This document shows positions 2 through 1,631 of a stretch of DNA of 1,631 bases, in pieces. Positions within the stretch are counted from its first letter, which is position 1; each line of letters begins with the position of its first letter. The notes under the pieces were generated by a model that saw only the letters and a program-made list of their open reading frames with translations, was not told where the DNA came from and ran no database searches. The translations under genes were made by a program, and so were the position numbers. Origin of the DNA: Naegleria gruberi (lineage: Eukaryota); NCBI GenBank assembly GCA_000004985.1, contig GG739365.1; one strand, 5' to 3'.

Positions 2-481
2 TGGCTGGGAATTCATGATTCACATTGTACTATTAGAAGAATTGAATGGGAAATTAAAGAAATTGTTGATAAGAAGAAGGAGAATTTGCCAGATCCTGCA
101 CCGAGGGAGCAGATTGAGAAAGAACTTGAAAAGTTTAAGGCAATTCCATTAGACAATTTTATTCCAAACAGAGTGCTTGAGGTGGATTATCCTTTCCAGT
201 ATGTGAATTCTCTCACTCTTTCTCCTCTTTCACAAGCCAATTCATCCCAAATTAGAAGCATTGAGATAGCTCAACAATCTACTCAACCACAACAACAATT
301 TCAACCACTGAATTCTTACAATAGTACAATGCCAACCTATCCTCCAAATGATAGCATTTGGCAACAAGAAGATCCATCCAATCATGACAAATCTCAAACT
401 ACCAAAACACCACAACATGCACCAATTAACTGGATGGGAGAAGATACTCTCGACATGGAATCATTTCTCAACAGAATATAA
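2..481 (+). CDS. 5'-truncated CDS (last ~159 codons) of a hypothetical protein. A moderately complex N-terminal part (WLGIHDSHCTIRRIEWEIKEIVDKKKENLPDPAPREQIEKELEKFKAIPLDNFIPNRVLEVDYPFQYVN) is followed by a Q/P/S/T-rich low-complexity tail. Product not recognised.
   Basis: Frame 2 is open from the first full codon (nt 2) to TAA at 479-481. The ORF track's start at 86 is TTG (Leu), an artefact of a bacterial start-codon rule. The first in-frame ATG is at 329, which would leave only ~50 aa, so the gene most likely begins upstream of the window. Codon usage (AT3-rich, TGG Trp) matches gene 2. Confidence 0.55.
   Translation, partial: WLGIHDSHCTIRRIEWEIKEIVDKKKENLPDPAPREQIEKELEKFKAIPLDNFIPNRVLEVDYPFQYVNSLTLSPLSQANSSQIRSIEIAQQSTQPQQQFQPLNSYNSTMPTYPPNDSIWQQEDPSNHDKSQTTKTPQHAPINWMGEDTLDMESFLNRI
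209..430 (+). other. Low-complexity, probably intrinsically disordered Q/P/S/T/N-rich C-terminal tail of gene 1 (SLTLSPLSQANSSQIRSIEIAQQSTQPQQQFQPLNSYNSTMPTYPPNDSIWQQEDPSNHDKSQTTKTPQHAP).
   Basis: Compositional bias is visible directly in the translation. Every Gln is CAA or CAG, with no TAA/TAG. A short Q-cluster (QQSTQPQQQFQ) is encoded by a CAA run at ~275-307. Confidence 0.5.
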
Positions 482-595
482 AATTGTAATTCTCTAAAAT
501 CATCTCATGTTCGTTTATTATTCGTGTAAAGTTCCATTTTTCCCTAATTTTATCTATTTTGTAATAAACATTGAAAAAGTATTATCTTGAAAAAA
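482..595. promoter_or_regulatory. 114-bp AT-rich intergenic spacer that must hold the gene-1 3' end signals and the gene-2 promoter/5' UTR. AATAAA is at 563-568. The gene-1 stop sits in a TAAA context (479-482). TAATT is at 487-491. An A-run lies immediately 5' of the gene-2 ATG (gaaaaaaATG).
   Basis: Motifs were read directly from the sequence. There is no Shine-Dalgarno-like purine tract 5-10 nt upstream of ATG 596, and no convincing -35/-10 pair. Assigning a function to individual motifs is inference, since all of them are short and expected by chance in AT-rich DNA. Confidence 0.3.
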
Positions 596-1612
596 ATGAA
601 AAGACAACCAACGGAAGAAGTTTCTTCCAACAATAAGAAAATTAAACAAACTAATGATGAAGAATCAACACTATCGGAACAAGAAACAAACAAAAAACTT
701 GGATTAATTAAAACTTTTCTCGATGATTTTATAGAATATAAAACGAATTATGATGATGAAGATATTGCCGAGGAGGATTTTGAAGAGGAAGCACAGAAGG
801 ATGCAAATGTTGAACGTCTCCGAAAATTTAGAGATAAATCCTATAAGAAGAATTGTGGAATTGATTGGAAAAAGGATCGTTCAATGATTATTGAGCAGAC
901 TGCAAAATTGTCAACTGCATCTGATATGATGGTAGTTGCCAAAGAATTTAAATTGTGGAATGAAAAGGAGTTTGTTATAAAGCTTATTGAAAAGAGTGAA
1001 TATGACTTGTCCTATGAAATACCAAAGAAATTGAAAAAGGATAGAGATGTTAATCTTGCATCTGCAAAGAAACATGGAATTATAAGTGATGGATTAGAGA
1101 AGGATAGGGAAATTGTGATGGCTGCTGCTAGTAGTGGTAATCTATCATGGCTTCCAAAGGAATTTTCAAATGATAGGGAGATTGTAATGGCAGCTGTTGC
1201 CAATAATGGAAGAATTTTGAGAGGTGTGGGTGATGAATTGAAAAATGATAGAGAAATTGTTAGAAAAGCCATTGAAAATGATGGATGTGCAATTGCAGAC
1301 GCCCCAGAAGAATTTCAGAAAGATAGAGAACTTGCTGAAATGGCAGTTAAACAAAATGGACGTGCCTTTATTTGTTTGAAAGAATTTGAAAACGATAGGG
1401 AGCTGCTAAAGATTGCTATTAAAGGAGATACCACCATTATTGACAAATTACCCTTTGCTATCAAGAATGATCGAGAAATTATCATGTTGGCTGTTGAGAA
1501 AGATGGATTAGCCATCAAATATGCTTCAGCTGATTTGAGAAATCAAAAGGATATTGTCATGAAAGCTATTGAAAAAAATCCTGATGTACTTTGTTATACT
1601 CCTTTGAAATGA
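596..1612 (+). CDS. Hypothetical DUF4116-type helical-repeat protein, 338 aa as called. A charged N-terminal region (aa 1-~90) is followed by ~10 degenerate tandem repeats of 21-29 aa (mostly 23-25 aa).
   Basis: The ORF track's 587 start is TTG. The first ATG in that frame is 596, preceded by an in-frame TGA at 572-574. The frame stays open to TGA at 1610-1612. Strong internal periodicity shows as repeated K/N-D-R-E-I/L-V/I-M-A-A-V...N/D-G...E-L/F units (EKDREIVMAAASSGNLSWLPKEF, SNDREIVMAAVANNGRILRGVGDEL, KNDREIVRKAIENDGCAIADAPEEF, QKDRELAEMAVKQNGRAFICLKEF, ENDRELLKIAIKGDTTIIDKLPFAI, KNDREIIMLAVEKDGLAIKYASADL, RNQKDIVMKAIEKNPDVLCYTPLK). This matches my memory of the DUF4116 (PF13475) repeat. 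The 3' end may be artefactual (see findings). Confidence 0.85.
   Translation: MKRQPTEEVSSNNKKIKQTNDEESTLSEQETNKKLGLIKTFLDDFIEYKTNYDDEDIAEEDFEEEAQKDANVERLRKFRDKSYKKNCGIDWKKDRSMIIEQTAKLSTASDMMVVAKEFKLWNEKEFVIKLIEKSEYDLSYEIPKKLKKDRDVNLASAKKHGIISDGLEKDREIVMAAASSGNLSWLPKEFSNDREIVMAAVANNGRILRGVGDELKNDREIVRKAIENDGCAIADAPEEFQKDRELAEMAVKQNGRAFICLKEFENDRELLKIAIKGDTTIIDKLPFAIKNDREIIMLAVEKDGLAIKYASADLRNQKDIVMKAIEKNPDVLCYTPLK
869..1609 (+). repeat. Degenerate in-frame tandem coding repeat array, ~10 units with periods of 87, 78, 63, 69, 75, 75, 72, 75, 75 and 69 bp. The core 'gat ag(a/g) ga(a/g) (a/c)tt gt' recurs at 1040, 1103, 1172, 1247, 1322, 1394 and 1469.
   Basis: Unit boundaries were measured from the recurring GAT (Asp of the N-D-R-E motif) at 875, 962, 1040, 1103, 1172, 1247, 1322, 1394, 1469 and (Gln-substituted) 1544. 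Adjacent units at 1100-1168 and 1169-1243 are ~80% identical at the nucleotide level over the first 30 nt. Confidence 0.8.
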
Positions 1613-1631
1613 GAAATGATCCAGAAATTAA
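1606..1631 (+). other. Out-of-frame (-1/+2 relative to gene 2) continuation of the DUF4116 repeat past the TGA stop: gaa atg aga aat gat cca gaa att = E M R N D P E I, running off the 3' edge.
   Basis: Frame 1 is open from 1585 to the window end. R-N-D-P-E-I matches the unit-initial consensus (K/R)-N-D-R-E-I at 5 of 6 positions. Its spacing from the preceding Tyr (Y+6=R, +7=N, +8=D) is identical to the preceding unit (YASADLRNQKDI). One extra A in the run at 1607-1609 would give ...YTPLKMRNDPEI... in frame. Confidence 0.4.

What the first reader, a model, noticed from the sequence alone, without database searches (positions are those of the whole stretch)
1585..1631. The repeat array continues in another frame past the annotated stop, so gene 2 is probably truncated by a frameshift or indel
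Seen in sequence: gene 2 ends ...tat act cct ttg aaa TGA (Y T P L K *). From 1609 the -1/+2 frame reads atg aga aat gat cca gaa att (M R N D P E I) and is open to the window edge. R-N-D-P-E-I is the unit-start motif of this protein, compare L-K-N-D-R-E-I-V and L-R-N-Q-K-D-I-V. It also sits at exactly the spacing expected after the ...C-Y-T-P-L... end of the last unit. Inserting one A into the a3 run at 1607-1609 yields ...DVLCYTPLKMRNDPEI..., a seamless next repeat. A chance match of a 5/6 motif at the right phase immediately after a stop is unlikely. The called 338-aa protein is therefore most likely either (i) truncated by a homopolymer indel or assembly error, (ii) a genuinely frameshifted, pseudogenising allele in a repeat-rich gene, or (iii) much less likely a -1 recoding site. 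In all cases the true array extends beyond this window.
Basis: seen in the sequence. Interest (0 to 1): 0.6.

Follow-up and report, generated by a model that had tools for sequence, protein, structure and literature searches.

The report
One-base deletion truncates Naegleria repeat gene
The gene at the end of this tiny Naegleria gruberi scaffold lacks one T, which cuts off its last 23 amino acids; two other copies are intact and end just past the window, so this is an ordinary sequencing error or minor allele.

Summary
After the annotated TGA (1610-1612), frame 1 reads ...FEMRNDPEI to the window edge, at the correct 25-codon spacing.

The window is a complete 1,631-bp orphan scaffold of Naegleria gruberi (protein XP_002668066.1, 338 aa). 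Two other copies read straight through:
- A second copy in the same assembly (XP_002675958.1, on a 396-kb scaffold).
- An independent environmental Naegleria contig (L001, 97% identical in DNA).

Both give ...CYTPFEMRNDPEIKEYHSKLIAERQNK*.

The DNA alignment places the lesion in the T-run. The window has TTT at 1603-1605 where L001 has TTTT.

The array does not continue. The intact frame closes 14 codons beyond the window. Only a terminal half-unit of 23 residues is lost, and a convergent gene starts 36 nt after the stop.

Nothing suggests programmed frameshifting. There is no slippery heptamer and no significant downstream structure, and the relatives need no shift.

The deletion lies 27-29 nt from the end of a redundant mini-scaffold. 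It is most likely a base-calling or assembly error, less likely a real allele. Low interest.

The parts
2..481 (+). 3' part of gene 1. The partial CDS runs off the left edge and stops at TAA 479-481. No Pfam domain.
   Evidence: Frame 2 is open from 2 to 478 and has no Pfam hit. It is 95% identical to the upstream gene of L001 and to the N-terminal part of P0002.
596..1612 (+). Annotated gene 2, 338 aa plus TGA. This is XP_002668066.1 / NAEGRDRAFT_54979, a DUF4116 repeat protein, C-terminally truncated as deposited.
   Evidence: The translation is 100% identical to P0001, whose contig length is 1631. Pfam DUF4116 scores 216.8 bits in 6 stretches.
1103..1602 (+). Run of canonical DUF4116 units of about 25 aa (KDREIV / NDREIV ... 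NG ...). Strict or near-strict unit starts are at 1169, 1244, 1391, 1466 and 1541.
   Evidence: Motif positions, family consensus, and a high-confidence repeating helix pattern in the AF2 model of the sister copy.
1603..1605 (+). T3 run, the site of the 1-nt deletion relative to intact copies, which have T4.
   Evidence: Window CC-TTTG aligns to L001 CCTTTTG. This is the only indel in the 1631-nt alignment that is not a multiple of 3. P0002 switches from window frame 2 to frame 1 exactly here.
1610..1612 (+). Premature TGA created by the frameshift.
   Evidence: In L001 the same bases are read as (a)TG A(ga) within FEMRND.
1603..1631 (+). Continuation of the true reading frame (frame 1): FEMRNDPEI, running off the window edge. 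It begins the terminal half-unit RNDPEIKEYHSKLIAERQNK.
   Evidence: 9 of 9 residues identical to P0002 525-533. 29 of 29 nt identical to L001 2238-2266. The AF2 model gives helices 525-528 and 531-546 with pLDDT above 90.

Best explanation
The window is an entire 1,631-bp orphan scaffold of the Naegleria gruberi draft assembly. It duplicates the 3' part of a locus that is also present, intact, on a 396-kb scaffold.

Relative to the intact copies it lacks one T in a TTTT run (window 1603-1605 = TTT), 27-29 nt from the scaffold end. The frame therefore shifts by one base. The deposited gene reads ...CYTP-LK-stop instead of ...CYTP-FEMRNDPEIKEYHSKLIAERQNK-stop.

Only 23 residues are lost. These are the last three residues of the final DUF4116 unit (FEM) plus a terminal half-unit that is predicted to form a long C-terminal helix of the alpha-solenoid.

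The most likely cause (inferred, not shown) is a homopolymer base-calling or assembly error in the thinly covered end of a redundant mini-scaffold. On that reading the biological gene is intact and about 359 aa long.
For: Shown:
- P0001 is 100% identical to the window product and sits on a 1,631-bp contig. P0002, from the same organism on a 396,166-bp contig, is 99% identical and ends ...CYTPFEMRNDPEIKEYHSKLIAERQNK.
- tblastn puts P0002 residues 282-524 in window frame 2 (875-1602) and residues 525-533 in frame 1 (1603-1629).
- L001, an independent ENA metagenome contig, aligns to the whole window at 97%. It has three gaps only: 18 nt, 3 nt and the single T.
- The L001 ORF is 360 aa, ends at TAA 2307-2309, and is followed by a convergent gene.
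- There are 6 Pfam DUF4116 stretches with or without the tail.
- The tail is modelled as helix 531-546 with pLDDT above 90.
- Several paralogues also end in a half-unit.

Inferred (error rather than allele):
- The site is within 30 nt of the end of a scaffold only about two Sanger reads long.
- A frameshifting indel is the class of difference least expected between functional alleles.
- It is the class most expected from read-end homopolymer miscalls.
Against: - No reads or quality values could be examined, so 'error' is not demonstrated.
- The 26 nt after the deletion are identical to L001, so the scaffold end is not grossly low in quality.
- The window carries two other private, amino-acid-changing differences away from the scaffold ends: nt 98 G vs T (Ala/Ser) and nt 964 A vs T (Glu/Asp). 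At both, P0002 and L001 agree with each other. That pattern would also fit a genuinely distinct haplotype.
- Naegleria is described as a heterozygous diploid (PMC9928731).
Confidence: 0.62

Rival explanations
1. Real variant. The orphan scaffold is the second haplotype, or a very recent duplicate, of the NAEGRDRAFT_58368 region. It genuinely carries a 1-nt deletion, giving an allele whose product lacks the C-terminal 23 residues (a mild truncation or incipient pseudogene).
For: - The window differs from P0002 at two further amino-acid positions away from the scaffold ends, and L001 sides with P0002 at both. The scaffold therefore looks like a distinct sequence rather than a copy with one bad base.
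- Its failure to merge into the main scaffold fits haplotype divergence.
- Naegleria is reported as a heterozygous diploid (PMC9928731).
- Only a terminal half-unit is lost, so selection against the allele could be weak.
Against: - The lesion sits 27-29 nt from the scaffold end, in a homopolymer, where base-calling errors concentrate.
- All other indels between the window and L001 preserve the frame.
- The lost helix is predicted with high confidence and is conserved 100% between P0002 and L001.
- No third sequence with T3 was found.
Confidence: 0.34
2. Programmed -1 ribosomal frameshift or another recoding event joins frame 2 to frame 1 near 1603-1609, so the full-length protein is made from the sequence as deposited.
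For: Only that the downstream frame encodes the authentic C-terminus.
Against: - There is no X XXY YYZ slippery heptamer in c cct ttg aaa tga (read from the sequence).
- The T3 and A3 runs are far too short for transcriptional slippage.
- The 100 nt after the site in L001 fold no better than shuffles (z = -0.92).
- Both relatives encode the same protein in one continuous frame. The shift is therefore not conserved, as recoding sites are.
Confidence: 0.01
3. Chance resemblance. The gene really ends at ...YTPLK* and the RNDPEI in the other frame is coincidental.
For: None beyond the shortness (7 codons) of what is visible in the window.
Against: - The strict motif occurs only here among the five non-coding frames, with chance about 7e-5.
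- 9 of 9 residues and 29 of 29 nt match the intact homologues, which continue to a conserved stop.
Confidence: 0.01

Closest known systems
NAEGRDRAFT_58368 (XP_002675958.1 / UniProt D2VJ45), Naegleria gruberi, on a 396-kb scaffold
   Same: 99% identical protein over window 2-181 and 875-1602, and 9 of 9 over 1603-1629. Same DUF4116 array.
   Different: - It has an intact frame through ...YTPFEMRNDPEIKEYHSKLIAERQNK*.
- It carries Ser and Asp where the window has Ala (nt 98) and Glu (nt 964).
- Its gene model fuses the upstream gene to the DUF4116 gene across a 693-nt 'intron' (window 182-874). That fusion is probably wrong.
Environmental Naegleria contig ERZ929261 k127_515913 (L001) and its 360-aa protein P0121
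   Same: 97% DNA identity over the whole window. Same two-gene layout, same start (MKRQ...), same repeat array.
   Different: It has T4 instead of T3, so the ORF runs 22 codons further. The 18-nt and 3-nt indels are in frame. There are 34 substitutions.
Pfam DUF4116 (PF13475) helical-repeat family
   Same: Scores 216.8 bits against a cut-off of 24.9, with tandem units of about 25 aa and the consensus ND[RK]EIV..AV...G.AL.YAS..L. Predicted alpha-solenoid (PMC8078820).
   Different: Nothing distinctive. Function is unknown for the whole family, and no solved structure matches (best Foldseek PDB E = 0.017).
Frameshift artefacts at contig ends of low-coverage draft assemblies (general knowledge)
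   Same: A single-base homopolymer indel within 30 nt of the end of a very short scaffold that is redundant with the main assembly.
   Different: Not verified at read level. A true heterozygous indel would look identical in the consensus.

Membership tests
DUF4116 (PF13475) repeat proteins | Match to the Pfam profile above the gathering score | tested here: met
   216.8 bits against a cut-off of 24.9, E = 1.7e-65, 6 stretches. Same for P0002 and P0121.
DUF4116 (PF13475) repeat proteins | Tandem units of about 25 residues with the ND(R/K)E(I/V)...G...L motif | tested here: met
   Unit starts are 24-25 codons apart. The consensus of 40 homologues shows the same unit.
DUF4116 (PF13475) repeat proteins | All-helical solenoid fold | tested here: met
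   In the AF2 model of P0002, residues 290-547 have pLDDT 86-98 with a repeating 10/6/4-residue helix pattern. A trRosetta alpha-solenoid is reported for the family in PMC8078820.
Programmed -1 ribosomal frameshift site | Slippery heptamer X XXY YYZ at the shift point | tested here: not met
   The sequence act cct ttg aaa tga contains no such heptamer in the zero frame (read directly).
Programmed -1 ribosomal frameshift site | Stable stimulatory structure 5-9 nt downstream | tested here: not met
   Only 20 nt remain in the window. The equivalent 100 nt of L001 fold at -11.3 kcal/mol, z = -0.92 against shuffles.
Programmed -1 ribosomal frameshift site | Two-frame arrangement conserved in relatives | tested here: not met
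   P0002 and L001/P0121 encode the same C-terminus in one continuous frame.
Sequencing or assembly artefact | Lesion in a homopolymer at the low-coverage end of a short scaffold that is redundant with the main assembly | tested here: met
   The T-run at 1603-1605 lies 27-29 nt from the end of a 1,631-bp scaffold. A near-identical intact copy lies on a 396-kb scaffold.
Sequencing or assembly artefact | Underlying reads do not support the consensus base count | not testable with these tools
   No reads, traces or quality values are available here.
Genuine frameshift allele or pseudogene | Deletion present in independent reads or clones from the same strain | not testable with these tools
   No T3 copy other than the window was found in the protein collection or in JGI metagenomes.

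The most novel reading that the evidence does not exclude
N. gruberi NEG-M is truly heterozygous at this locus. One allele encodes the full DUF4116 solenoid and the other lacks the terminal capping helix. That would be a natural example of allele-specific C-terminal truncation in a repeat-protein family of unknown function.
Probability: 0.34. Interest if true: 0.12.

Novelty: already known. Interest (0 to 1): 0.07.

Why it matters
It matters only for annotation hygiene.
- XP_002668066.1 (NAEGRDRAFT_54979) should be treated as a truncated, redundant copy of the DUF4116 gene that is intact on the large scaffold.
- The sister model NAEGRDRAFT_58368 is probably a chimera of two adjacent genes.
- Comparative or pangenome counts of Naegleria genes that include both models double-count one locus and carry two wrong protein sequences.
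- No new biology follows from the frameshift itself.

Tried and rejected
- Exact-protein look-ups of P0001, P0002 and the window ORF in the contig index found nothing. The DNA of the 396-kb scaffold could therefore not be read, and the window-versus-sister comparison is at protein level only.
- A scan of JGI metagenome contigs for the junction sequence, allowing T3 or T4, found nothing.
- The N. gruberi genome paper (PMID 20211133) is not held in the library. Statements about its sequencing method and coverage are not cited from it.
- Programmed frameshifting was considered and rejected: no heptamer, no structure, not conserved.
- Transcriptional slippage at the A7 run (1572-1578) was considered and rejected. 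The conserved NPDVLCYTP between that run and the shift is read in frame 2.
- A Foldseek search of the model against PDB gave only generic helical-repeat matches, none with E <= 0.001.

Full report
**What the window is.** The 338-aa product of ATG 596 to TGA 1612 is 100% identical to a Naegleria gruberi protein: P0001 = EFC35322.1 / XP_002668066.1, NAEGRDRAFT_54979. Its only contig is 1,631 bp long, exactly the window length. The window is therefore a complete orphan scaffold of the N. gruberi draft assembly. It has 33.7% G+C. It holds the 3' part of an upstream gene (frame 2, 2-481), a 114-nt spacer, and a DUF4116 repeat gene (Pfam PF13475, 216.8 bits, 6 stretches).

**Checking the observation.** The reading is accurate.
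- Gene 2 ends tat act cct ttg aaa TGA.
- Frame 1 is open from 1585 to the edge and reads ...FEMRNDPEI.
- The strict unit-start motif ND.E[ILV] occurs four times in the coding frame. Among the other five frames it occurs only once, at 1615-1629.
- That hit is 25 codons after the previous unit start, which is the period of the array.
- The chance of this motif in 7 random codons of this composition is about 7e-5.

**What it is.** Two independent sequences show the intact state.
1. The same assembly holds a sister copy on a 396,166-bp scaffold (P0002 = XP_002675958.1, NAEGRDRAFT_58368). It is 99% identical and ends ...NPDVLCYTPFEMRNDPEIKEYHSKLIAERQNK. tblastn places its residues 282-524 in window frame 2 (875-1602) and residues 525-533 in frame 1 (1603-1629, 9 of 9 identical).
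2. The 90% cluster of P0001 contains a 360-aa ENA protein (P0121). Its 2,747-bp metagenome contig was retrieved as L001.

L001 aligns to the entire window at 97% identity with only three gaps:
- an 18-nt gap in the tail of gene 1;
- a 3-nt gap near the start of gene 2;
- one single base, where window CC-TTTG aligns to L001 CCTTTTG.

The window thus has T3 at 1603-1605 where the intact gene has T4.

**How far the gene goes on.** In L001 the frame closes at TAA 2307-2309, 14 codons beyond the point matching the window end. Thirty-six nucleotides later a convergent gene begins on the other strand, an Arf/Ras-like GTPase fragment.

Pfam reports six DUF4116 stretches for the truncated protein and for both intact ones. 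In P0121 the last full match ends at residue 341, the M of FEM.

So the frameshift removes 23 residues: FEM, then RNDPEIKEYHSKLIAERQNK, a unit-start motif followed by one long helix. An AlphaFold2 model of P0002 gives the repeat region pLDDT 86-98. It models residues 525-528 and 531-546 as helices with pLDDT above 90. Several paralogues also end in such a half-unit. The expectation that more complete units follow beyond the window is not met.

**Mechanism and rivals.** The lesion is a one-base deletion in a short homopolymer, private to this scaffold and 27-29 nt from its end.

I could not read traces or reads, so error and real allele cannot be separated by evidence here. I favour error (about 0.62) for four reasons:
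- The position is at the end of a scaffold only about two Sanger reads long.
- The scaffold is redundant with the main assembly.
- Every other indel against L001 preserves the frame.
- The lost tail is perfectly conserved between P0002 and L001.

A real haplotype variant (about 0.34) is kept alive by two further private amino-acid differences at nt 98 and nt 964. At both, P0002 and L001 agree against the window. Naegleria is also described as a heterozygous diploid (PMC9928731).

Programmed -1 frameshifting is effectively excluded:
- There is no X XXY YYZ heptamer.
- The downstream 100 nt of L001 fold no better than shuffles (z = -0.92).
- The relatives use one continuous frame.

**Comparison with what is known.** The protein is an ordinary member of DUF4116. 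This helical-repeat family has no known function, is predicted to be an alpha-solenoid (PMC8078820), and has no solved structure. The best Foldseek PDB matches are generic designed or ARM/HEAT-type repeats, none with E <= 0.001. The intact gene is already in the databases, so nothing here is new.

**Side finding.** The sister model P0002 joins window 2-181 (...FIPNRVLE) directly to 875 onward (DRSMII...). It treats 182-874 (693 nt, GT...AG) as an intron and fuses two genes. The evidence favours two genes, as annotated on the window:
- Both ORFs stay open through the supposed intron.
- Indels against L001 there are 18 and 3 nt.
- Divergence of 596-874 (0.011 per site) equals that of the rest of gene 2 and is far below that of the spacer (0.060).
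- A 63%-identical homologue of gene 1 (P0122, 428 aa, contig L002) reads straight through the supposed donor (FIPNRVLVVDYPF...).
- P0122 has no DUF4116 part and no DUF4116 neighbour.

**Verdict.** It is wrong on the site (T-run, not A-run) and on the extent (a 23-residue tail, not more repeats). This is an annotation or assembly blemish, or at most a minor allele. Interest is low.

Noticed in passing
window 182-874 (and P0002 residues 281/282): The sister gene model NAEGRDRAFT_58368 treats this 693-nt stretch (GT 182-183, AG 873-874) as an intron and fuses the upstream gene to the DUF4116 gene. Open frames, frame-preserving indels, low divergence of 596-874 and the stand-alone homologue P0122 all indicate two separate genes. 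The fused model is probably chimeric.
   Followed up: partly
window 98 and 964: Two private, amino-acid-changing differences of the window: G vs T (Ala vs Ser) and A vs T (Glu vs Asp). At both, the sister copy P0002 and the environmental contig L001 agree with each other. They are either further errors or marks of a distinct haplotype.
   Followed up: partly
window 239-258 and after 621-625: Relative to L001 the window has 18 extra nt in the low-complexity Ser/Gln-rich tail of gene 1. It lacks one TCT (Ser) codon in a Ser run near the start of gene 2. Both indels preserve the frame.
   Followed up: no
L001 2346-2744, minus strand: A convergent Arf/Ras-like small GTPase fragment (Pfam Arf, E = 1.7e-6) starts 36 nt after the stop of the DUF4116 gene. 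This leaves no room for more repeats downstream.
   Followed up: partly
window 1572-1578: An in-frame A7 run (gaaaaaaatc) lies 25 nt upstream of the deletion. L001 has it interrupted (gaacaaaatc, Lys to Gln). It is not involved in the frameshift, but it is another homopolymer that would be error-prone.
   Followed up: no
L002 269-1555 (P0122): The same metagenome sample (ERZ929261) holds a 63%-identical homologue of gene 1. It has a long divergent C-terminal tail and a different downstream neighbour on the other strand. Gene 1 and its homologues have no Pfam domain, and only two homologues were found among 5.8 billion proteins.
   Followed up: no
P0002 model, residues 290-547: The DUF4116 array is modelled with very high confidence (pLDDT 86-98) as a regular helical solenoid. 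It has no significant match in the PDB (best E = 0.017), so the family lacks an experimental structure.
   Followed up: partly
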